Assembly (NCBI RefSeq): GCF_024223415.1
Contig: NZ_CP100500.1
From: Escherichia coli
Lineage (GTDB): Bacteria; Pseudomonadota; Gammaproteobacteria; Enterobacterales; Enterobacteriaceae
Length of the DNA stretch: 64,000 bases
Direction: 5' to 3' (one strand)
In this document: positions 40,267 to 50,336 of the stretch, one piece after another
How the letters are laid out: every line of letters begins with the position of its first letter
Position numbering within the stretch: the first letter of the stretch is position 1
Program-made: the position numbers and the translations under genes
Notes under the pieces: generated by a model
Databases searched by the model: none
What the model saw: the letters and a program-made list of their open reading frames with translations, nothing else
What the model was told of the DNA's origin: nothing

Positions 40267-40890
40267 TTATCTTTTGCGGCGGTAAATACGATGTTCAATC
40301 ATGACCCCTACGATCTGTAAGGGGACATCTGCACTTCGTAGCACGGGATAGTCGGGATTCAGGGGGACCAGTTCAAAATCATCAACGCCGATACCCAACG
40401 GGCGGTATTTTTTGAAAGTGGCCTCATACCCGTTGTTCTTTGCAACGACGAATTCGCCAGGCATGGGGCATAAATCCGGGTCAATTATTACAATATCGCC
40501 TTCCTTAAACTCCGGTTGCATACTGTCACCATCTATCCGCAGGGCGAAGCAGGACTCAGGTACGTCGGAATCCGCGAGAACGTATTCCATATTTCCATCC
40601 ATGTCCGTAGCGTCTTTTGCTTCCGTTAGCGCACCGGCCTGTACGTAACTGAGGATCGGGATGCGGCGGGTACTTATTTCCGCCAGGGGCATTATATTCC
40701 TGCCATTTAAAAGCCAGTCGGGACTGCATTTCAGTGCCTTTGAAAGCTCTATGATGTTGCGGGGCTTCCGGGTCTTTCCGCTTTCAATAGTCTCAATGGA
40801 TTGCTGGCTGACCCCCGCGATTGCTGCAACTTCTGTTTGTGTCATCCCGAGTTCTGTACGGCGTGCTTTAAAGCGTTCTGCAAGTGACAT
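40267..40890 (-). CDS. cI: CI-like repressor (HTH_XRE plus S24 LexA-like peptidase)
   Basis: ATG at 40890 after GGGGG. N-terminal HTH (LGMTQTEVAAIAGVSQQSIETIESG). C-terminal GDSM serine and FKK lysine. Confidence 0.9.
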   Translation of the reverse strand: MSLAERFKARRTELGMTQTEVAAIAGVSQQSIETIESGKTRKPRNIIELSKALKCSPDWLLNGRNIMPLAEISTRRIPILSYVQAGALTEAKDATDMDGNMEYVLADSDVPESCFALRIDGDSMQPEFKEGDIVIIDPDLCPMPGEFVVAKNNGYEATFKKYRPLGIGVDDFELVPLNPDYPVLRSADVPLQIVGVMIEHRIYRRKR

Positions 40891-40928
40891 GGTGTACCCC
40901 CTGATTCCTGATTTTTTGCTCTCCCTTA

Positions 40929-40990
40929 TTAATACAATTTTTGTTGTAGTTGACAAACATCATTTATTGTCGCTAAATACCACATAAATT
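40929..40990. promoter_or_regulatory. divergent cI/cro promoter-operator region
   Basis: Plus strand: TTGACA (40950-40955), 18 nt, TAAATA (40974-40979). Minus strand: TTGTCA, 16 nt, TATTAA. Palindromes TACAAnnnnnnTTGTA and GACAA..TTGTC, plus an AAATACCACATA site. Confidence 0.55.
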
Positions 40991-43620: not shown

Positions 43621-43687
43621 CCGAGCCGTTGCGGTTTTTATTCATTTAAATGCATATGCAATGCTGGTGAATGATAAGGGGGTGCAG

Positions 43688-44386
43688 ATGCTGACAGCAA
43701 TCAACAACGAAAAAATTGTCATCGCAAGGGACGCGCAGAAACCGGGAATTTTCGCCTGCCCGGAATGTGGTGAAGTTGTCACCCTGCGGAAAGGTTCGGT
43801 GAAAGTTCACCATTTCGCCCATCGCAGCACCACATCCTGCGGTTACGGGAAAGGCGAATCTGAGTTGCACATGGATTTGAAAATGCAGGTCTATGACGCG
43901 TTGAACGCGCATCGTGAGGTGGAATATGTTGCGATGGAGGTCGCAGTCGGTGATGTTCGTCCCGATGTGCTGGCGATTATTCGGGGTCAGAAGGTTGCTT
44001 TTGAGATTCAGGTTAGTTCGCTGAGTATTGAAGACCTCTATCGCCGCACGGTTGCGTACGCAGCTCAGGACATTGCGATGATCTGGATCCTGCACTGGCC
44101 TGAAGGTACTGCACTGGACCGGCTTTATCACCCTGCATCATGGGAGCGATGGTTACATACTTGCGGAATGGCAACTCTGTACTTCTGGGCGGGCGATGGC
44201 TGGGTCAGGCCAGTGCGTCTGGGAAACCGACAACATGGATTACAAAGAGCACCTCGTGCCCATCTGGTTGATGATTTCGAACCAAAGCGAACAGGCGGGT
44301 GGATTAAAGGTGATTTTCTGATACCTGCTCGCTTTATCTGGAATCGTGTGCGACGGCAAAAACGTAGAGGTCAGAGCTATGCGTAA
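43688..44386 (+). CDS. CoiA-like PD-(D/E)XK nuclease family protein
   Basis: ATG at 43688 after AGGGGG. CPECG...HFAH...C, then GESELH...E...RPDV...FEIQVS...W pattern as in the competence protein CoiA family. Confidence 0.6.
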   Translation: MLTAINNEKIVIARDAQKPGIFACPECGEVVTLRKGSVKVHHFAHRSTTSCGYGKGESELHMDLKMQVYDALNAHREVEYVAMEVAVGDVRPDVLAIIRGQKVAFEIQVSSLSIEDLYRRTVAYAAQDIAMIWILHWPEGTALDRLYHPASWERWLHTCGMATLYFWAGDGWVRPVRLGNRQHGLQRAPRAHLVDDFEPKRTGGWIKGDFLIPARFIWNRVRRQKRRGQSYA

Positions 44387-44813
44387 TATTCAACAGGTTT
44401 TAGAGCGCTGGGGTGGCTGGGCTGCCAATAGCAACACCACAGTGAGCTGGGCTCCAATAGCGGCGGGATTTAAAGGGCTGGTAGTCAGCAGCCTGCCTGG
44501 CAGGCTGAGTTGCTGCGACGACGATGGCCTGATTATCGATGCTTGCGTCTGTCGGCTGCAGCAGGTCCGTAAGCCTGAGGAACTGGACGTCATTATGCTG
44601 TACTACGTCTACGGGTTAAGCAAACGTGAGATAGGACGGCGGCGTCGATGTTCTGAAGGATTTATCCGCCAGCAGTTGCAGGTAGCTGAGGGATTCATTG
44701 AGGGGTGTCTCTGCATGCTGGGTGTGAGCCTTCAGATGGATCCTGAGGTCGAAATTCAAAGGGATGAAAAAAGTATTAGTGCGCTACGCAAAAACTGCGC
44801 TACGCTGGTATGA
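44379..44813 (+). CDS. Q: late-gene antiterminator Q
   Basis: MRNIQQVLERWGGWAANS...AAGFKGL...CCDDDGLIID matches the recalled Q family of 21/933W-type lambdoid phages. Confidence 0.85.
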   Translation: MRNIQQVLERWGGWAANSNTTVSWAPIAAGFKGLVVSSLPGRLSCCDDDGLIIDACVCRLQQVRKPEELDVIMLYYVYGLSKREIGRRRRCSEGFIRQQLQVAEGFIEGCLCMLGVSLQMDPEVEIQRDEKSISALRKNCATLV

Positions 44814-44839
44814 GTTGAATTTCTGACCTCAACGAAGAG

Positions 44840-44862
44840 CTCCAAATTATTGGGGGTTTTTT
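44840..44862 (+). terminator. hairpin plus T6 just downstream of Q
   Basis: ctccaa/ttgggg stem with a 4-nt loop, followed by tttttt. Confidence 0.5.
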
Positions 44863-44940
44863 GTACGCACAACAGGTAATAGTATTGAACCCGCAGACCT
44901 CGCGGAACTGGTGAAAGGTGCCGCGCAGTGCTCTTATCGT

Positions 44941-45067
44941 TGTGGTGAAGCTCAATGGCGAGCTAGCAGATAGGCGACAGTGAAAATACTAGTCATGTAT
45001 CTGACCGCCGCGCGTACTGCAATCGGCAGCGCACCGATGGAAGCCGGTTCGATTCCGGCCGCCACAA
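44941..45067 (+). ncRNA. non-canonical tRNA-like element (127 nt)
   Basis: Perfect T-arm gccgg-TTCGATT-ccggc. The 3' acceptor cgccaca pairs with tgtggtg at 44941. D-arm gctc-aatggc-gagc. Arm atcgg-cagcgca-ccgat. An extra ~57 nt sits between the D-arm and that arm. Confidence 0.3.
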
Positions 45068-45187
45068 CCCAAACTGAGCCGTAGCCACTGGCTGTCCTGA
45101 ACTCCTCAGTGATAGTTACGCTGCGGCCTTCTTTTTCCCCTTCCTAATACAAGAACTACGCAATCCGTTACTGGCGGAGGCGTTGCT

Positions 45188-45403
45188 ATGAAATCAATGG
45201 ACAAAATCTCAACTGGCATTGCCTACGGAACATCCGCTGGTAGTGCGGGATACTGGTTTTTACAGTGGTTGGATCAGGTCAGTCCGTCACAGTGGGCTGC
45301 TATTGGTGTGCTGGGGAGTCTGGCACTGGGCTTTCTGACTTATCTGACGAATCTGTACTTCAAGATAAAAGAGGACCGTCGCAAGGCGGCGCGGGGAGAG
45401 TAA
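45188..45403 (+). CDS. S: class II pinholin (phage 21 S-type), dual-start motif
   Basis: [45 protein letters not shown]... matches recalled S21 (Met1/Met4 starts, two TM segments). Confidence 0.9.
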
Positions 45404-45407
45404 TTCA

Positions 45408-46343
45408 ATGGAACATAATAATGAAAAATCCAGAGAGCACTCTGGAAACAGCAAACATTATTCCATTGCTCATTCATTCGGCGGCTTTCGTGATGTAGTC
45501 GGACAGGGTGCTGAGAGAGAACAGGAGAGTAATACAATGACTCAAAACCATGAACTGGTTGTTAAAGGAACCCGAAATTTTGAGAATAAAATTGCGGTGA
45601 TTTTAACCCTGCGTGACAAAAAGCGTTTTGCCTGTGAGATATTTGACTTACACATCAACCTTGAACGACAGGAAGGCGCCACTCTGGAGTTTTATGAGTC
45701 AGAGGCAATAAAACGGGCAAAGACATTGTTCCGGGATGTTGCTGCAGGGTTATGTGAAGGGGACGAGCTGTCGCCGGAAAAGCGCCCCATAATTTTACAG
45801 GCGCACAATGTGTGGATAACCTACAAAGGAAAGCTACCGGGAAGAATTACTGGTTCTCTGAAGATGCCGCCGTCAACACTGCGGTCAGAAAAAGAGGCGT
45901 CTTGTCTGCAGTCTGAGTACTCCATTACGGTTAAAAGTGCCGGAGAGGAAGGAAATAAACGTTATTTTATTGCGTCTGCACCTGATAAAGATCAGGAATG
46001 GGAGTGTAACCGGCCATCCTTTGTTGTATACGGAGATGGCGGGAAAATAACCATCTCAGAAAATGGGAAATTAACACCGCCATCGCACCAGCATAGTGAG
46101 GCGCTCATTGAATTTGCCATTGATTACCTGAAGAACAATAAAAAGCAGGGGCTGATGAAGCGCATTGGTCGTTGCATGGGATATCTGCAGGTAGCAGCTG
46201 AGATTGAAATGATGGCCAGTGGTGCTGACAATGATGCAGTTGTGCTGGAGGCTCTTCTGCGTGATTTTGATAATACGCCCTTTAAGAAAGCACCTGTTGA
46301 CTGGATGCAGCCGGGGATGACTTATCTGAAAGGGCGTATATAA
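45408..46343 (+). CDS. hypothetical protein inserted in the lysis cassette
   Basis: ORF of 311 aa. An alternative ATG at 45537 with an AGGAGA RBS gives 268 aa. No recognisable motif. Confidence 0.6.
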   Translation: MEHNNEKSREHSGNSKHYSIAHSFGGFRDVVGQGAEREQESNTMTQNHELVVKGTRNFENKIAVILTLRDKKRFACEIFDLHINLERQEGATLEFYESEAIKRAKTLFRDVAAGLCEGDELSPEKRPIILQAHNVWITYKGKLPGRITGSLKMPPSTLRSEKEASCLQSEYSITVKSAGEEGNKRYFIASAPDKDQEWECNRPSFVVYGDGGKITISENGKLTPPSHQHSEALIEFAIDYLKNNKKQGLMKRIGRCMGYLQVAAEIEMMASGADNDAVVLEALLRDFDNTPFKKAPVDWMQPGMTYLKGRI

Positions 46344-46352
46344 GGTGGCTCG

Positions 46353-46667
46353 TTATCTGTTGCTGGATAATCGACTGAAGATGCGTTCTTTTTGTGTTTT
46401 TGCGTAATGATTGTCCCACTCACAATCAAGGTAGCTTAATTCTTCATTCAACCAGTTATTTATATTGGTCTTAATACGCATAAGCATGGGCTGTGTTAAT
46501 GCTCTGGCGATAATGCCGAGAGTCACAGGTGTGAGATGTCCATACGGCTCAGCCTGAATGGATTTTACTGCATCGTGTTCTTGTGGGAGGAGTAAGAGGC
46601 ACTCTGATTTTACCCGCTCATTTATGGCTTGCAGGCATAAATCATAATTATGTTGATCGTTATGCAT
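46353..46667 (-). CDS. hypothetical 104-aa protein (possibly YdfR/DUF826-like)
   Basis: Convergent with the preceding gene and antisense to late transcription. Its position between holin and lysozyme recalls ydfR in the Qin prophage. Weak recall only. Confidence 0.5.
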   Translation of the reverse strand: MHNDQHNYDLCLQAINERVKSECLLLLPQEHDAVKSIQAEPYGHLTPVTLGIIARALTQPMLMRIKTNINNWLNEELSYLDCEWDNHYAKTQKERIFSRLSSNR

Positions 46668-46795
46668 GGTTAATCCTCTACTGAAATTGTCAGATATATT
46701 TCAGCCATCAGGAAAAACGCCAGTGTCCTACCGCTGGCGGGCTGAAGATTTAACATATCCAGGGATTCGGAACCGATAAATCCTGATAAATATCC

Positions 46796-47329
46796 ATGAA
46801 CACCAAAATCAAATATGGCCTGTCGGCTGCCGTTCTGGCACTGATTGCCGTCGGTGCGCCTGCGCCTGATATTCTCGACCAGTTTCTGGATGAAAAAGAA
46901 GGTAACCACACAACGGCATACCGCGATGGTTCCGGTATATGGACCATCTGTCGTGGTGCCACAATGGTGGATGGTAAGCCCGTCATACCGGGAATGAAGC
47001 TGTCGAAGGAAAAATGCGTTCAGGTTAATGCCATTGAGCGTGATAGGGCGCTGGCATGGGTGGAGCGCAATATTAAAGTACCTCTGACCGAAGCACAGAA
47101 AGCGGGTATTGCGTCATTCTGTCCCTATAACATTGGCCCCGGTAAGTGTTTCCCGTCGACGTTTTATAAGCGGCTTAATGCCGGTGATCGTAAAGGTGCC
47201 TGTGAGTCGATTCGCTGGTGGATTAAGGACGGTGGGCGTGATTGCCGCACACGTTCAAATAACTGCTACGGACAGGTTATTCGTCGTGACCAGGAAGCAG
47301 CACTTGTGTGCTGGGATATCGACAGATGA
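46796..47329 (+). CDS. R: SAR endolysin (T4-lysozyme-type, phage 21 R-like)
   Basis: N-terminal signal-anchor-release segment GLSAAVLALIAVGA followed by the E-x8-D-x5-T catalytic triad (EGNHTTAYRDGSGIWT). Confidence 0.9.
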   Translation: MNTKIKYGLSAAVLALIAVGAPAPDILDQFLDEKEGNHTTAYRDGSGIWTICRGATMVDGKPVIPGMKLSKEKCVQVNAIERDRALAWVERNIKVPLTEAQKAGIASFCPYNIGPGKCFPSTFYKRLNAGDRKGACESIRWWIKDGGRDCRTRSNNCYGQVIRRDQEAALVCWDIDR

Positions 47330-47334
47330 GCAGA
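47262..47334. repeat. R 3' end / Rz start segment, copy 1
   Basis: About 70 bp that recur, diverged, at 47819-47889. Confidence 0.8.
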
Positions 47335-47421
47335 ATATTTTGCTGAAAAATGACGTTGGCCAACGCGGACGGATAACACGATATTCGACATAAATGAATT
47401 TAAATAGTGAATAAAAGCAGA

Positions 47422-47456
47422 AACCCCGATTGTTGGTCGCAATCGGGGTTTTGTGT
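47422..47456. terminator. strong hairpin terminator inside the R-Rz insertion
   Basis: aaccccgattg/caatcggggtt stem followed by a T-rich tail. Confidence 0.65.
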
Positions 47457-47514
47457 TTCTGGCAGTAAGTTATGGGAGGCTGCCTTGATTAATTTTAGCG
47501 GAGGAGACTGGATT

Positions 47515-47652
47515 GTGGAAGCTCTGAAATTGCTCGAAAGAAGTCCGGTTCTGAGAAGAATGTTTTATATAGCTCTTATAGTTATCGGAGCATTCGCCGT
47601 TGCGAAATCACTTCCGGGAATAGCTGAAATCATAAAGGCGCTGAATGCATAA
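47515..47652 (+). CDS. 45-aa single-TM protein
   Basis: GTG after GGAGGAG. VEALKLLERSPVLRRMFYIALIVIGAFAVAKSLPGIAEIIKALNA. Part of track ORF 47407..47652. Confidence 0.45.
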   Translation: MEALKLLERSPVLRRMFYIALIVIGAFAVAKSLPGIAEIIKALNA

Positions 47653-47818
47653 AGAATACCTGGCTGAGGCTGACAAACAGGTCTCTGAATTGAAAGCTCC
47701 GGTAACCGATGACATCAGCGGAGCGGTGGCTTTTGCCATTAAGTGGGTGGCAGTCGGCGTTGCTATATCACCGGTACTGTATGGGCTGGCAAAGCTGGTT
47801 ATTGCGTTGAAATCATAA
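47645..47818 (+). CDS. 57-aa single-TM protein
   Basis: Not in the ORF track. Its ATG overlaps the upstream stop (ATGCATAA). MHKEYLAEADKQVSELKAPVTDDISGAVAFAIKWVAVGVAISPVLYGLAKLVIALKS. Confidence 0.45.
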   Translation: MHKEYLAEADKQVSELKAPVTDDISGAVAFAIKWVAVGVAISPVLYGLAKLVIALKS

Positions 47819-47889
47819 CTGTTACGGCCAGGTTATTCGTCGTGACCAGGAAAGTGCATTAGCCTGTTGGGGGATAGATCAGTGAGCAG
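47819..47889. repeat. relic R 3' end fused to the intact Rz start, copy 2
   Basis: ctgttacggccaggttattcgtcgtgaccaggaa... parallels 47262-47334. Confidence 0.8.
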
Positions 47890-48349
47890 AGTCGCCGCGA
47901 TTATTTATGCTCTGGTTATCTGCATCATCGTCTGCCTGTCGTGGGCGGTCAATCATTACCGTGATAACGCCATCGCCTACAAAGAACAGCGTGATAAAAA
48001 AGTCAGTGAGCTGAAGCAGGCGACCGCCACCATTACTGACATGCAGCAACGCCAGCGTGCTGCTGATGTACTCGATGCTAAATACACGAAGGAGTTGGCT
48101 GATGCGAAAGCTGAAAATGATGCTCTTCGGCGCAAGCTTGATAATGGTGGTCGGGTGCTCGTCAAAGGAAAATGCTCTGTGCCATCCTCAGCCGAAACCT
48201 CCAGCGCCTCCGGCATGGGCAATGATGCCACCGTCGAACTCTCTCCAGTTGCTGGACGAAACGTTCTCGGTATCCGGGACGGAATCATCAGAGACCAGAC
48301 AGCACTGAGAACGCTTCAGGAATATATCAGGACGCAATGCCTTCGATGA
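47882..48349 (+). CDS. Rz: i-spanin Rz
   Basis: GTG at 47882. [39 protein letters not shown]... closely matches recalled lambda Rz. Confidence 0.9.
48102..48308 (+). CDS. Rz1: o-spanin Rz1 (embedded, +1 frame)
   Basis: [19 protein letters not shown] lipobox followed by a proline-rich region, nested in Rz. Confidence 0.85.
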
Positions 48350-48523
48350 TAGCGATAATTTTACTGATCATCCTTCACATCTGGCTCTGTAGACAGGGTG
48401 GTGATCACTTCTGGAGTGAATCCAGATTAAACATCTCATTGCTGATGCTTGAAGTTGAGCATCTGGCGCGCGGTAAGGGGCTGCGTTGAAATAAGAGCCA
48501 GTCATTAAAAATACCTGGATTTA

Positions 48524-48550: not shown

Positions 48551-48852
48551 CCATTACAAAAGCCACTCCCTACAGAGTGGCTTTGATAATGGCTTATACC
48601 CTACACGGGATAACTTAACTGATATCCCTTTTAACGGATAAAGGTATTCAAGCCTGACACATCATGCGCTGTATCGTCGCCGTATTCCCGTATTAACAGA
48701 GACCGTAGCCCGACGGGGAACTCCTTCTGCGAGAGTGTGCGGGAATAATCAAAAACGATGCACACCGGGTTTTTACCGCGCTAATGATTCGCGGGTTTGT
48801 CCCTCATGCTCGCCAGTCCTGTGCGAGGGTGGAAGAAACAGGGCATGTATTC
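48551..48852. repeat. ~300-bp direct repeat, copy 1
   Basis: 48551-48775 matches 50338-50561 with about six mismatches by eye. Weaker similarity continues to 48852 / 50638. The repeat begins with the hairpin agccactc/gagtggct. Confidence 0.95.
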
Positions 48853-48899
48853 AGGAGCGTGCGACCGTGGTCGCACGGTATCTTTGTCAGGAGGTTTTG

Positions 48900-49760
48900 A
48901 TGAAAGAGTTGCAAAAAATTAATTCAATAATGGAAAGGTTAAGTGCTCTTGAGCGTAAGCTGGACGATTGTGGAAAGCTGTGTGTTGAAAAGCAAAATGA
49001 GCTTTACCGGGAATTTTTTACAATCGTAAGTGAGCTGATGCCAATTGTTAATAACTGCCTGATGACATCCAGATTTTTTAATGTCGATGCTACTACATCC
49101 AGAAAATTTTCTGTGAAAATTCAAGAAAGAGTTTCTGGTAGTGTGACAAGAGAGATGGCTGAACAGTTGGTGGCAATGAGCAATAAAACAAAAAGAAAAA
49201 AGGCATTGCTTGTAACAGCAAATCAGCTTTCAGGGCGCGTTGACTTTCAGGTCAGACAGGGTGGGCGTGTACTGGTAAATGATGCGTTCGTTGGACGTAG
49301 CTTTAGTCCTTACTCGATAAAATATGATGTTGATGCAGATGATCAGGATATCAGCATTTCCTGGAAATCTGAGACAGCAGGGATTGTATTAACAGCAGAG
49401 TTGTTGAGTGATGATAAAAATGATGTCCAGCATCATTTGGACGAAAAGAATCATATTTCTGAAATTTGTATGAAGCCACGCAGCGGAATGACTTTATTGT
49501 CACGCACTCTTGCTGCTGGCTTTTCTGCACCGGAAAAACGTGTGCTTCTGGTAGTGCCTGAAGATGCAGATATTCGACCACTGAATGGCTGTGATGTTAT
49601 TAGTGCAAAAACATTGCATACCCGCGTCATTCCTGTACCGGATGTGGTCATTATTGATGATGTTGAGAAATGCAAGTCTGTTTCCTCAACTGCCACAATC
49701 AAGCGAATTTTACGTTGTAGCACGTCGGCTGTTGTATTCCGGAAGCAGTTACATAACTAA
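48900..49760 (+). CDS. hypothetical 286-aa protein (N-terminal coiled coil; C-terminal degenerate P-loop-like region)
   Basis: ATG at 48900 after AGGAGG. AT-rich. PRSGMTLLSRTLA...RVLLVVPEDAD...DVVIIDDVEK resembles Walker A (Lys replaced by Met) and Walker B spacing. Inference only. Confidence 0.6.
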   Translation: MKELQKINSIMERLSALERKLDDCGKLCVEKQNELYREFFTIVSELMPIVNNCLMTSRFFNVDATTSRKFSVKIQERVSGSVTREMAEQLVAMSNKTKRKKALLVTANQLSGRVDFQVRQGGRVLVNDAFVGRSFSPYSIKYDVDADDQDISISWKSETAGIVLTAELLSDDKNDVQHHLDEKNHISEICMKPRSGMTLLSRTLAAGFSAPEKRVLLVVPEDADIRPLNGCDVISAKTLHTRVIPVPDVVIIDDVEKCKSVSSTATIKRILRCSTSAVVFRKQLHN

Positions 49761-49886
49761 CCAGTTTTGTTTTGCAGAACATCCTCAACTAAAAGCTTAT
49801 AGAAAGAGAGCCTGAGATATTTTTTCTGTCTCTCGTAGTTGTTTGTTTTTTTTTTCGAACAGGCTTACAACTTACAGGATATAAAC

Positions 49887-50336
49887 ATGCAAGAAGAAGC
49901 AAATAAAATTCTTGTTGATTTATTGAAGAAGGCCAGCGATGGAATTGATTCCGCCATTGCATTCAGTCAGGCTCAGATTCCGGATGTTGTTCATCAGTTG
50001 CTGGTATGGAATATGGTTGATAGCCTGATTAAAACATTAATAGCCATTTCAACAATCCCTCTGGTTTTCTGGTTTATGAAGAAGCAGTGCCAAAGAGTTG
50101 AGACAGGTAAAATCGGTGATGAAGGATATTCATGGGAGAAGGGAAATCCCAAATACAGGCCGACAATGGTTTGGGATAGCAAAGGTGATATTAATCTTCT
50201 TATCGTGCCATTGGTTGGAGTTTTGACTATGTGGGGGATTTTTATTATTTGTGCAGTAACCAATATGACATGGTTAAAAATCTGGCTGGCACCTAAGTTA
50301 TATCTAATCGAATACGCAGCATCACTAATTAAATAG
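49887..50336 (+). CDS. hypothetical 149-aa membrane protein (two predicted TM segments)
   Basis: ATG at 49887. TM segments LIKTLIAISTIPLVFWFM and LLIVPLVGVLTMWGIFIICAV. Confidence 0.55.
   Translation: MQEEANKILVDLLKKASDGIDSAIAFSQAQIPDVVHQLLVWNMVDSLIKTLIAISTIPLVFWFMKKQCQRVETGKIGDEGYSWEKGNPKYRPTMVWDSKGDINLLIVPLVGVLTMWGIFIICAVTNMTWLKIWLAPKLYLIEYAASLIK

What the first reader, a model, noticed from the sequence alone, without database searches (positions are those of the whole stretch)
45404..46795. Pinholin and SAR endolysin are separated by a 1.4-kb insertion with a convergent gene pair
The holin is phage-21 S-type and the endolysin is a SAR lysozyme of the phage-21 R type. In phage 21 these genes are contiguous. 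Here about 1.4 kb lies between them. It carries a 268-311-aa ORF on the plus strand (45408 or 45537..46343) and a 104-aa ORF on the minus strand (46353..46667). The minus-strand gene is antisense to the Q-dependent late transcript and has its own upstream region (46668-46795). Neither protein has a motif I can name; the small one may be YdfR/DUF826-like, which in the Qin prophage also sits between holin and lysozyme. A gene transcribed against late transcription, inside the lysis cassette, is likely to be lysogen-expressed. That suggests a moron, exclusion or lysis-timing function rather than a lysis function.
Basis: partly seen in the sequence, partly recalled or inferred. Interest (0 to 1): 0.6.

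Follow-up and report, generated by a model that had tools for sequence, protein, structure and literature searches.

The report
Accessory gene pair in lysis cassette
The stretch between the prophage's holin and lysozyme genes is not a foreign insertion into a phage-21 cassette: it is the usual YdfR-type late gene of this cassette type, enlarged by an extra domain, followed by a small backward-facing add-on gene that always travels with that domain and whose function is still unknown.

Summary
The ORFs and coordinates are real. The framing, "a 1.4-kb insertion into a phage-21 S/R cassette", is not. The holin is S21-type. The lysozyme is the Qin RrrQ allele (89% identity to RrrQ, 32% to R21). 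In 50 of 51 S21/RrrQ cassettes sampled, a ydfR (DUF1327) gene lies between S and R. Only R21-type cassettes are contiguous.

The plus-strand gene, not the minus-strand one, is the YdfR homologue. Its first 74 residues are 55% identical to K-12 YdfR, the part reported to bind the catalytic half of RNase E. It also carries a disordered linker and a C-terminal domain (phrog_1085).

The 104-aa minus-strand gene (phrog_1853) is predicted as a confident five-helix bundle with no known relative. It lies in a clean 410-bp present/absent segment (46363-46772) of low GC (42% against 51%). It is under purifying selection. In every lineage examined it is convergent with a C-domain gene or its remnant, beside three different holin families. 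The C-domain gene often occurs without it.

A promoter-like site and a two-tier stem-loop leader upstream of it are conserved across lineages.

The arrangement is already annotated, for example in Stx2 phage 86 and E. coli O104:H4. About 1.7% of complete E. coli genomes carry it. Expression and function remain untested. Overall it is a moderately interesting, moron-like accessory module.

The parts
44346..44813 (+). Antiterminator Q gene (context). A terminator-like hairpin follows at 44840-44855, so the genes downstream on the plus strand form the Q-dependent late operon.
   Evidence: PF06530 at E 2.5e-50; plus-strand terminator-like site at 44840-44855.
45188..45403 (+). S21-type class II holin (pinholin family), 71 aa, with the dual-start motif M1-K-S-M4.
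   Evidence: PF04971 at E 1.1e-35; phrog_9876 and phrog_20, holin; 97% identical to the holin of an R21-type cassette.
45411..45539 (+). Rare 129-nt insertion placed directly after the ancestral ydfR start codon (ATG at 45408). It ends in a second copy of the ribosome-binding site plus ATG (GGAGAGTAAT[T/A]CAATG), so the gene has two equivalent in-frame starts, giving 311 or 268 aa. It contains a minus-strand terminator-like hairpin at 45446-45429.
   Evidence: Alignment with phage 86, a short-ydfR phage and Qin; found in only 2 of 5426 complete E. coli genomes; hairpin.
45537..46343 (+). Long YdfR-family late gene, 268 aa. It has an N-terminal DUF1327 domain (about residues 1-75, 45537-45761), a predicted disordered linker (about residues 66-152), and a C-terminal domain (about residues 150-268, 45984-46343) that belongs to phrog_1085/phrog_26186.
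   Evidence: PF07041 at 99.1 bits against a cut-off of 25; phrog_1085 at E 2.8e-138; residues 1-74 are 55% identical to K-12 YdfR; AlphaFold2 domain layout, mean pLDDT 50; dN/dS of the C-domain 0.27-0.35; RefSeq annotates homologues as 'YdfR family protein' with the 268-aa start.
46353..46667 (-). Small gene, 104 aa. The product is soluble, mildly acidic (pI 6.2) and predicted as a five-helix bundle. It belongs to phrog_1853, of unknown function. It is convergent with the C-domain gene, with the two stop codons 9 nt apart.
   Evidence: ORF; phrog_1853 at E 8e-50; AlphaFold2 pLDDT 88.8, pTM 0.82; no meaningful fold or sequence relatives; dN/dS 0.14-0.44; homologues down to 26% identity always lie next to a C-domain gene.
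46363..46772 (.). 410-nt present/absent segment. It holds all but the last 10 nt of the small ORF, plus its leader and -10 element. GC is 42%. The junctions show CCG(G)ATAA microhomology.
   Evidence: Alignment with loci that lack the small gene (L156, L163) and with L180, which has a different junction; GC content; 53 of 80 C-domain loci lack the segment.
46668..46795 (-). Upstream region of the small gene.
- Promoter-like -35 TTTATC at 46780-46775 and -10 TATGTT at 46757-46752.
- Two-tier stem-loop starting about at the predicted transcript start. The outer stem is 46745-46740 paired with 46706-46701; the inner stem is 46739-46734 paired with 46723-46718. A U5 run follows.
- Conserved ATGGCTG at 46708-46702, which opens a 12-codon upstream ORF ending in TAA at 46672-46670, 2 nt before the main ATG.
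- GAGGA Shine-Dalgarno sequence.
   Evidence: Sequence. The same elements occupy the same register in three lineages whose proteins are 37-68% identical. 97% of cells are paired, and the three one-sided changes are G-U wobbles valid only on the minus-strand RNA. Fold z-score -2.3. The consensus promoter scan did not list this site.
46796..47329 (+). RrrQ-type lysozyme, 177 aa. It has a Gly/Ala-rich, signal-arrest-release (SAR)-like N-terminus and the E35/D44/T50 triad.
   Evidence: PF00959 at E 7e-24; 89% identical to K-12 RrrQ; 32% identical to R21; PDB matches 3HDE and 4ZPU only at E 1e-15 to 1e-16.
47867..48349 (+). Rz-like spanin gene (context). It is separated from R by a second variable segment, 47330-47866.
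   Evidence: PF03245 at E 9e-29; phrog_13.

Best explanation
This is a Qin-type lysis cassette: S21-type holin, ydfR, RrrQ-type lysozyme, Rz. An older two-gene accessory module has been joined to its resident ydfR gene.

The module has two genes.
1. A late-strand gene encoding a conserved roughly 120-aa C-terminal domain (phrog_1085). Here it is fused in frame behind the DUF1327 domain and linker of YdfR.
2. A convergent 104-aa gene (phrog_1853) with its own leader.

Shown:
- The layered anatomy and the borders of each layer.
- Both genes are real and under purifying selection.
- The small gene is never found without a C-domain gene or its remnant next to it, across lineages and holin types. 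The C-domain gene often stands alone.
- A conserved promoter-like site and a 5' stem-loop precede the small ORF.

Inferred:
- The long YdfR protein is made late from the Q-dependent transcript. Through its DUF1327 domain it contacts the catalytic half of RNase E, as reported for K-12 YdfR.
- The small gene is a moron-like unit transcribed from its own sigma-70 promoter in the lysogen, with a 5'-terminal hairpin that stabilises or gates its mRNA.
- It is silenced when antiterminated late transcription runs through it head-on.
- Its helical protein acts on the C-domain protein, as a regulator or neutraliser, rather than taking a direct part in lysis.
For: Cassette type:
- R is 89% identical to RrrQ and 32% to R21.
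- 50 of 51 RrrQ-type loci have ydfR between S and R, and 25 of 25 R21-type loci are contiguous.
- K-12 Qin has the order essQ-ydfR-rrrQ-rzpQ.

YdfR identity:
- PF07041 at 99 bits.
- 55% identity to K-12 YdfR over residues 1-74.
- That region bound the N-terminal half of RNase E in two-hybrid and co-purification assays, and it pulled down RNA (PMC13232886).

Layering: alignments define a 129-nt scar, divergence from short ydfR at about 45866, and a 410-nt indel at 46363-46772.

Pairing of the two genes:
- 42 of 42 IMG/VR loci with the small gene have it convergent with a C-domain gene.
- Remote pairs are at 26-43% (small protein) and 33-42% (C-domain) identity. They sit upstream of an S21-type holin in L127 and in Salmonella L217, upstream of a lambda-S-type holin in L211-213, and next to a holin_2_3 holin in L214.
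- 53 of 80 C-domain loci lack the small gene, with at least two different deletion junctions.

Selection: dN/dS 0.14-0.44 for the small gene and 0.27-0.35 for the C-domain.

Moron features: GC 41-42% against 51-52%; opposite strand; present in 94 of 5426 complete E. coli genomes.

Leader: -10-like TAYGKT lies 6 nt before a conserved TCAGCC...GGCTGA / CGYCAG...CTGGYG two-tier stem in three lineages. Wobble changes are valid only on the small gene's strand.

Late-operon context: Q and a tR'-like terminator lie upstream.
Against: - There are no expression data for either strand. The strict promoter scan did not call the proposed promoter. Its -35 matches only 3 of 6 positions and its -10 only 4 of 6.
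- No intrinsic terminator was found after the small ORF.
- There is no evidence of physical contact between the two proteins. Small-gene alleles swap independently of the C-domain: L176 has a C-domain 82% identical to the window's but a small protein only 48% identical. This argues against tight co-evolution.
- In L128-130 the small gene is intact beside a 65-aa C-domain remnant, so it can persist without a functional partner.
- The leader structure rests on sequence conservation and three wobble changes, with no compensatory pair. It could equally be a DNA operator.
- RNase E binding is extrapolated from a 55%-identical domain, and overproducing that protein had little effect on the transcriptome (PMC13232886).
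- The long-YdfR structure model is poor (pLDDT 50).
Confidence: 0.5

Rival explanations
1. The small gene is an independent lysogen-expressed moron, for example a superinfection-exclusion, anti-phage or host-fitness factor. Its function has nothing to do with the C-domain protein. The adjacency reflects shared descent and a recombination hot spot at the promoter-proximal end of the late operon.
For: - Discrete indel, low GC and opposite strand.
- Allelic variants at 100, 68 and 48% identity sit between conserved flanks, as expected for a diversifying immunity-like gene.
- It survives intact beside a decayed partner in L128-130.
- Other cargo, such as HicAB, a methyltransferase, Rha-like genes and stx-associated genes, occupies the same Q-to-R region in relatives.
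Against: - Linkage to a C-domain gene is kept in every lineage examined, down to 26-39% identity. It holds at two different cassette positions and next to three holin families. Hitch-hiking alone explains this poorly.
- No PADLOC match.
- The protein has no membrane segment, unlike many exclusion proteins.
Confidence: 0.28
2. The unit works mainly at the RNA level. The minus-strand transcript and its structured leader are antisense to the late mRNA between ydfR and R. They tune how S and R expression are coupled, and so set lysis timing. The encoded protein is secondary.
For: - The convergent layout has 3' ends 9 nt apart here and overlapping by 8-33 nt in relatives.
- No terminator follows the small ORF, so transcripts would run antisense into ydfR.
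- The leader is more conserved than the coding sequence.
- 452 untranslated nucleotides separate ydfR from R on the late mRNA.
Against: - The ORF is under purifying selection at the protein level and folds confidently.
- In Salmonella and other lineages the pair lies upstream of S, not between S and R, so an effect on S-R coupling cannot be the general role.
Confidence: 0.1
3. The pair is a toxin-antidote or addiction module. The C-domain protein is toxic and the small protein neutralises it.
For: - The dependence is one-sided: the small gene always has a C-domain gene beside it.
- An intact small gene persists next to a decayed partner in L128-130, as with orphan antidotes.
Against: - The genes are convergent, not co-transcribed.
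- Most C-domain genes lack the small gene (53 of 80), so no antidote is needed for carriage.
- No match to known toxin, antitoxin or defence profiles.
- Overproduced K-12 YdfR was not reported as toxic (PMC13232886), although it lacks the C-domain.
Confidence: 0.08
4. The minus-strand ORF is a chance or decaying reading frame, and the segment is non-functional filler.
For: No family annotation. It is lost frequently. It is rare in genomes, at 1.7%.
Against: dN/dS is well below 1, with synonymous sites saturated in distant pairs. The frame is kept open in homologues from 26 to 100% identity. The fold is confident. The ribosome-binding site and leader are conserved.
Confidence: 0.04

Closest known systems
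Qin cryptic prophage lysis cassette of E. coli K-12 (essQ-ydfR-rrrQ-rzpQ)
   Same: Same gene order and the same alleles. The holin is S21-type. A DUF1327/YdfR gene lies directly after the holin stop codon. The lysozyme is 89% identical to RrrQ, and Rz follows.
   Different: Qin YdfR is 103 aa, and its gene overlaps rrrQ. The window's gene is 268 (or 311) aa, with an added linker and C-domain. A 104-aa gene on the opposite strand follows it. Qin has neither.
Phage 21 lysis cassette (S21, R21, Rz/Rz1): pinholin plus signal-arrest-release endolysin
   Same: The holin family and dual-start motif match, and the holin is 97% identical to that of an R21-type cassette. The lysozyme belongs to the same fold family, with E35/D44/T50 and a SAR-like N-terminus (sequence).
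   Different: The lysozyme is only 32% identical to R21. S and R overlap in all 25 R21-type loci sampled, with nothing between them.
Stx2-converting phage 86 genes gp05 and gp06 (also prophages of E. coli O104:H4 2011C-3493, 55989 and EC332)
   Same: The same four-gene arrangement. The small protein is 100% identical, and the C-domain and leader are identical from about 45790 to 46840. The genes are annotated 'YdfR family protein' and 'hypothetical protein'.
   Different: The N-terminal DUF1327 part and the holin are diverged alleles (holin 77% identical). Those phages lack the 129-nt insertion. R and Rz are interrupted by different cargo.
Morons of lambdoid phages (for example lambda bor and lom, and the HK97/HK022 morons; own knowledge of Juhala et al. 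2000 and Hendrix et al.)
   Same: A discrete extra transcription unit between conserved late genes. It is present in some relatives and precisely absent in others, has atypical base composition, and is often on the opposite strand.
   Different: Prophage expression is not shown and no terminator was found. Unlike typical single-gene morons, this one is persistently linked to one particular neighbouring late gene.
Phage-encoded modulators of RNase E (T7 gp0.7, T4 Srd, phiKZ Dip; own knowledge)
   Same: What the YdfR part may work like: a phage protein that contacts host RNase E. The homologous K-12 domain binds the catalytic half of RNase E (PMC13232886).
   Different: No sequence or fold relationship to these proteins. 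No effect of YdfR on RNA decay has been shown. Binding was not tested for this protein.

Membership tests
S21-type pinholin (Pfam PF04971, class II holin) | Profile match above the curated cut-off | tested here: met
   121.8 bits against a cut-off of 26, E 1.1e-35.
S21-type pinholin (Pfam PF04971, class II holin) | Dual-start motif giving antiholin and holin (Met1 ... Met4) | tested here: met
   The sequence begins MKSMDK. It is 97% identical to the holin next to an R21 lysozyme.
S21-type pinholin (Pfam PF04971, class II holin) | Forms small pinholes that depolarise the membrane and release a SAR endolysin | not testable with these tools
   Needs physiology.
Phage 21 R (R21) signal-arrest-release endolysin | T4-lysozyme-family domain with the E-x8-D-x5-T triad | tested here: met
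   PF00959 at E 7e-24. E35, D44 and T50 were read from the translation.
Phage 21 R (R21) signal-arrest-release endolysin | Close sequence relationship to R21 (PDB 3HDE) | tested here: not met
   32% identity and PDB match at E 6e-16 only. The protein is 89% identical to RrrQ instead.
Phage 21 R (R21) signal-arrest-release endolysin | N-terminal weakly hydrophobic, Gly/Ala-rich SAR segment that exits the membrane | tested here: inconclusive
   Residues 8-24 (GLSAAVLALIAVGAPAP) look SAR-like. Release from the membrane cannot be tested here.
YdfR / DUF1327 (PF07041), for the plus-strand gene | Profile match above the curated cut-off | tested here: met
   99.1 bits against a cut-off of 25, covering residues 1-100 of the 268-aa form.
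YdfR / DUF1327 (PF07041), for the plus-strand gene | Homology to K-12 YdfR and the same position between holin and RrrQ-type lysozyme | tested here: met
   55% identity over residues 1-74. The position matches Qin and 50 of 51 RrrQ-type loci.
YdfR / DUF1327 (PF07041), for the plus-strand gene | Binding to the N-terminal half of RNase E, reported for K-12 YdfR residues 1-72 | not testable with these tools
   Known only from PMC13232886, and for the K-12 protein.
   No Pfam family at E up to 0.1. DUF826 genes are separate genes upstream of the holin in relatives.
Moron (autonomous accessory transcription unit in a lambdoid late region) | Precisely present or absent between two conserved phage genes | tested here: met
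   410-nt indel at 46363-46772 with clean junctions. 27 of 80 C-domain loci have it and 53 lack it.
Moron (autonomous accessory transcription unit in a lambdoid late region) | Base composition different from the neighbours | tested here: met
   GC is 41.0% for the gene and 42.2% for the indel, against 51-52% for S, R and Rz and 51.4% for the window.
Moron (autonomous accessory transcription unit in a lambdoid late region) | Own promoter and own terminator | tested here: inconclusive
   A positionally conserved promoter-like site lies before a conserved leader, but it falls below the consensus-scan threshold. No terminator was found downstream of the ORF.
Moron (autonomous accessory transcription unit in a lambdoid late region) | Expressed from the repressed prophage | not testable with these tools
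   No transcriptome data were reachable, and literature searches were empty.
Known anti-phage defence or toxin-antitoxin systems | Match of either protein to a defence, toxin or antitoxin profile | tested here: not met
   PADLOC gave nothing at E up to 1. NCBIfam gave nothing. Pfam gave nothing beyond DUF1327.

The most novel reading that the evidence does not exclude
The C-domain late protein and the small helical protein form a previously undescribed antagonistic pair, wired by convergent transcription. The prophage makes the small protein from a leader-controlled promoter. It uses the protein to neutralise the late effector, which in E. coli phages is tethered to RNase E through DUF1327. 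This effector may come from its own leaky late transcription or from incoming related phages. On induction, Q-driven transcription switches the small gene off. That would make the pair a new kind of lysogeny/lysis-phase switch or exclusion device, sitting next to holins of several families.
Probability: 0.12. Interest if true: 0.7.

Novelty: new member of a known kind. Interest (0 to 1): 0.38.

Why it matters
The S-to-R interval of S21/RrrQ cassettes, and the stretch just upstream of holins, turn out to hold a recurrent and entirely uncharacterised gene pair. The pair occurs in clinically relevant prophages, including Stx2 phage 86 and a prophage of the O104:H4 outbreak strain. One partner carries a domain recently reported to bind RNase E, so the pair may link late phage development to host RNA decay.

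Practical consequences:
- Lysis-cassette comparisons should use the Qin-type cassette, not phage 21, as the baseline.
- NCBI's PGAP annotation pipeline marks intact long ydfR genes as pseudogenes in some reference genomes.
- The 410-bp unit is a clean target for a deletion experiment.

The arrangement itself is already in public annotation, so the value lies in defining the module rather than in discovering it.

Tried and rejected
1. Profile searches of the small protein against Pfam, NCBIfam, PADLOC and PDB sequences, both as a single sequence and as an 11-sequence profile, found nothing.
4. The search of 1.84 billion representative proteins found only about 8 true distant small-protein homologues. 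Hits to giant repetitive adhesins (P0138, P0139, P0148) were rejected as repeat-driven artefacts after reading the sequences.
5. The genome-contig scan for the small protein found none, so one-genome-per-species sampling misses this rare accessory gene.
6. The profile search with the C-domain alignment found no informative domain fusions other than DUF1327. The family is limited to E. coli, Shigella and Salmonella.
7. Rfam found nothing relevant in 44300-48500.
8. I first read the hairpin plus T-run at 46739-46713 as a terminator upstream of the small gene. I dropped this because the T-run is not conserved in Salmonella-type and L211-type leaders, whereas the two-tier stem is.
9. I first thought ydfR was decayed in O104:H4 and 55989, as annotated. 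Translation shows an intact 268-aa frame.
10. I first thought the C-domain and the small gene were strictly co-inherited. I corrected this after 53 of 80 C-domain loci proved to lack the small gene.
11. Literature searches by family name, gene name, protein accession and locus tag found nothing, apart from one 2026 paper on K-12 YdfR.
Full report
**What is in the sequence**

The window carries a compact lambdoid prophage. It has a CI-like repressor gene at 40267-40956 (-), a replication gene, a Q antiterminator gene at 44346-44813 followed by a terminator-like hairpin, lysis genes, and terminase genes from 51148.

Within the finding's coordinates the ORFs are as described:
- holin, 45188-45403 (+)
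- a plus-strand ORF, 45537-46343 (268 aa), with an in-frame upstream ATG at 45408 that would give 311 aa
- a minus-strand ORF, 46353-46667 (104 aa)
- lysozyme, 46796-47329 (+)

The holin is S21-type (PF04971, E 1e-35, MKSM dual start). It is 97% identical to the holin of a genuine R21 cassette.

**The baseline is the Qin-type cassette, not phage 21**

The lysozyme is only 32% identical to the 165-aa R21 protein, which I identified in locus L047 by its match to PDB 3HDE. It is 89% identical to RrrQ of the K-12 Qin prophage. It does keep E35/D44/T50 and a Gly/Ala-rich N-terminus, so it belongs to the same functional class.

Among the 80 IMG/VR loci with the closest holins, 76 were informative:
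- All 25 with an R21-type lysozyme have S and R overlapping.
- 50 of the 51 with an RrrQ-type lysozyme have a DUF1327 gene between S and R, with spacers of 312 to 1263 nt.

K-12 Qin itself reads essQ-ydfR-rrrQ-rzpQ. A gene between S and R is therefore the rule for this cassette type.

**Which gene is YdfR**

The plus-strand protein is the YdfR homologue. It matches PF07041 (DUF1327) at 99 bits, and its residues 1-74 are 55% identical to K-12 YdfR.

The small minus-strand protein matches no Pfam, NCBIfam, PADLOC or PDB entry. It matches only phrog_1853, which has no known function. DUF826 genes are separate genes upstream of the holin in some relatives.

The only functional study found is PMC13232886. 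It reports that residues 1-72 of K-12 YdfR bind the N-terminal catalytic half of RNase E, by two-hybrid assay and co-purification. YdfR preparations also carried RNA, and overproduction changed few transcripts.

**Layers of the 1.4 kb**

Alignment with phage 86, E. coli EC332, a short-ydfR phage and Qin, and with loci lacking the small gene, resolves four layers.

1. *The canonical start of ydfR.* It lies 4 nt after the holin stop (ATG at 45408).
2. *A 129-nt insertion, 45411-45539.* It ends in a duplicate of the ribosome-binding site plus ATG, so there are two equivalent in-frame starts. It occurs in only 2 of 5426 complete E. coli genomes.
3. *Replacement of the short ydfR tail.* From about 45866, the short 3' end is replaced by a longer linker and a C-terminal domain of about 120 aa (phrog_1085/phrog_26186).
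4. *A clean 410-nt segment, 46363-46772.* It contains the small gene and most of its upstream region. Its junctions show CCG(G)ATAA microhomology.

Loci without the small gene keep the last 10 nt of its ORF (L156, L163) or a different piece of its leader (L180). This points to at least two independent losses. Leader remnants next to R occur in about 210 more E. coli genomes and about 80 phage records.

**The two genes form an old, mobile pair**

All 42 IMG/VR loci that encode the small protein have it convergent with a gene carrying the C-domain, whether or not that gene has the DUF1327 N-terminus.

A search of 1.84 billion representative proteins found only a handful of distant homologues, at 26-43% identity. 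Their contexts are informative:
- *L127 and Salmonella L217/218.* A stand-alone C-domain protein of 185 or 321 aa (42% identical) converges on the small gene directly upstream of an S21-type holin. That holin is contiguous with an R21-type (165-aa) lysozyme in L217, and overlaps its lysozyme gene in L127.
- *L211-213.* The pair has a 184/185-aa partner (33-35% identical) and a 33-nt 3' overlap. It sits upstream of a lambda-S-type holin, PF05106.
- *L214.* The pair sits next to a holin_2_3 holin.
- *L128-130.* An intact small gene sits beside a 65-aa remnant of the C-domain.

The reverse does not hold. 53 of 80 C-domain loci, and Salmonella L219/220, lack the small gene. Small-gene alleles also swap independently of the C-domain: L176 has a C-domain 82% identical to the window's but a small protein only 48% identical. 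The dependence is therefore one-sided.

**Are the genes real?**

Both are under purifying selection:

| Gene | dN/dS | Comparison |
|---|---|---|
| Small gene | 0.44 | alleles at 68% identity |
| Small gene | 0.14-0.15 | alleles at 43-48% identity |
| C-domain | 0.27-0.35 | all comparisons |

The small protein is predicted with confidence as a five-helix bundle (pLDDT 88.8, pTM 0.82). It is soluble and has a pI of 6.2.

The long YdfR model is poor overall (pLDDT 50). It shows a three-strand-plus-helix N-domain, a disordered stretch over residues 66-152, and a moderately confident C-domain. Fold and profile searches gave nothing.

**Upstream region of the small gene**

The 128-nt spacer between the small ORF and R has the same length in the E. 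coli alleles. The same elements recur in the same register in three lineages whose proteins are only 37-68% identical (E. coli, Salmonella-type, L211-type):
- a -10-like hexamer TAYGKT (window TATGTT, 46757-46752), with a weak -35 (TTTATC, 46780-46775) at 17 nt
- six nucleotides further on, a two-tier stem: TCAGCC/GGCTGA enclosing CGYCAG/CTGGYG (window 46745-46701)
- a conserved ATGGCTG in the 3' arm of the outer stem

The ATGGCTG opens a short upstream ORF. In the window it has 12 codons and ends 2 nt before the main ATG. It has 6 and 4 codons in the other two lineages. In some E. coli alleles it is fused in frame to the main ORF.

On eight distinct sequences, 97% of cells pair. The only three changes are one-sided G-U wobbles, which are valid on the minus-strand RNA but would be A-C mismatches on the late transcript. 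There is no compensatory pair.

The U-run after the inner hairpin is not conserved outside E. coli, so I do not read it as a general terminator. The strict consensus scan did not list this promoter, and no terminator follows the ORF. The evidence for a promoter and a 5' leader is thus comparative and suggestive, not proof.

**Distribution and prior knowledge**

The small-gene segment occurs in 94 of 5426 complete E. coli genomes, always on the chromosome, and 53 of these copies are at least 99% identical. It occurs in four phage records, including Stx2 phage 86.

From about 45790 to 46840 the window is essentially identical to phage 86 and EC332, although the holins differ (77-94% identity). 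The module has therefore spread recently by recombination.

The genes are already annotated as 'YdfR family protein' and 'hypothetical protein' in these records. In O104:H4 2011C-3493 and 55989 the long ydfR is flagged as a pseudogene, but it translates as an intact 268-aa frame.

**Interpretation**

The best-supported reading is a Qin-type lysis cassette whose ydfR gene has been fused to an older accessory pair. The small gene behaves as a moron-like unit functionally tied to the C-domain gene.

The following are inferences, not findings:
- The long YdfR protein is made late and contacts RNase E.
- The small gene is expressed in the lysogen from its own promoter, with a protective or gating 5' stem-loop, and is switched off by head-on late transcription.
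- The small protein acts on the C-domain protein.

The main rival is an independent moron that is linked only by descent. It cannot be excluded, because alleles swap independently and the small gene survives beside a decayed partner.

A direct lysis role is unlikely. Both proteins lack membrane segments, and the pair sits next to three unrelated holin families at two different positions.

**Verdict**

The insertion framing and the YdfR assignment were wrong. What remains of interest is an uncharacterised, recurrent gene pair beside holins, with a conserved leader and a possible link to RNase E.

Noticed in passing
window 47330-47866: R and Rz are also separated, by about 540 nt. The segment holds a strong bidirectional terminator-like hairpin (47420-47452, 14-bp stem) and two small ORFs: 47407-47652 (81 aa, no family) and 47645-47818 (57 aa, phrog_1115). 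Relatives carry different cargo here, for example ant in phage 86, or nothing at all, as in EC332. This is a second variable slot in the cassette.
   Followed up: partly
window 45411-45539: The rare 129-nt insertion duplicates the ribosome-binding site and ATG of ydfR and keeps the frame open for 43 codons. It contains a 25-codon ORF (45421-45498) and a minus-strand terminator-like hairpin (45446-45429). That hairpin would be the first terminator met by any antisense transcript coming from the small gene. The insertion occurs in only 2 of 5426 complete E. coli genomes.
   Followed up: partly
L215 2378-3184 (E. coli 55989) and L216 2378-3184 (O104:H4 2011C-3493): RefSeq/PGAP marks the long ydfR gene as an incomplete pseudogene ('missing C-terminus'), but the 268-aa frame is intact. 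This looks like an annotation artefact caused by a family model built on short YdfR proteins.
   Followed up: yes
window 45012-45070: A weak match to the tRNA-like 3' end of tmRNA (20 bits, below the gathering score) lies between Q and the holin. Related phages carry tRNA genes at this position. It is probably a tRNA remnant; ARAGORN finds no intact tRNA.
   Followed up: no
window 48735-49760 and 49839-50336: Two plus-strand ORFs of unknown function (341 aa, phrog_2571; 165 aa, phrog_3054) lie in a low-GC stretch (39-44%) between Rz and the terminase small subunit. Relatives carry bor/iss at this position. Neither has a Pfam or PADLOC match. They may be further accessory cargo.
   Followed up: partly
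window 43661-44386: A CoiA-like nuclease-domain protein (PF06054 and PF25164) is encoded directly upstream of Q and overlaps its start. It has a weak N-terminal match to Druantia DruB in PADLOC (E 9e-6, over 44 residues only).
   Followed up: no
L127 6195-6833; L224 2344-2730: Relatives carry other cargo in the same late-operon neighbourhood: a HicA/HicB pair between Q and the C-domain gene in L127, and a Panacea-domain protein after R in E. coli A34. This fits the idea that the region is a hot spot for accessory genes.
   Followed up: no
Representative-library hits P0138, P0139, P0148: Giant repetitive adhesin-like proteins (2532-6458 aa) scored E 1e-7 to 1e-21 against the small-protein profile through many short repeated stretches. 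Reading the sequences shows these are repeat-driven false positives.
   Followed up: yes
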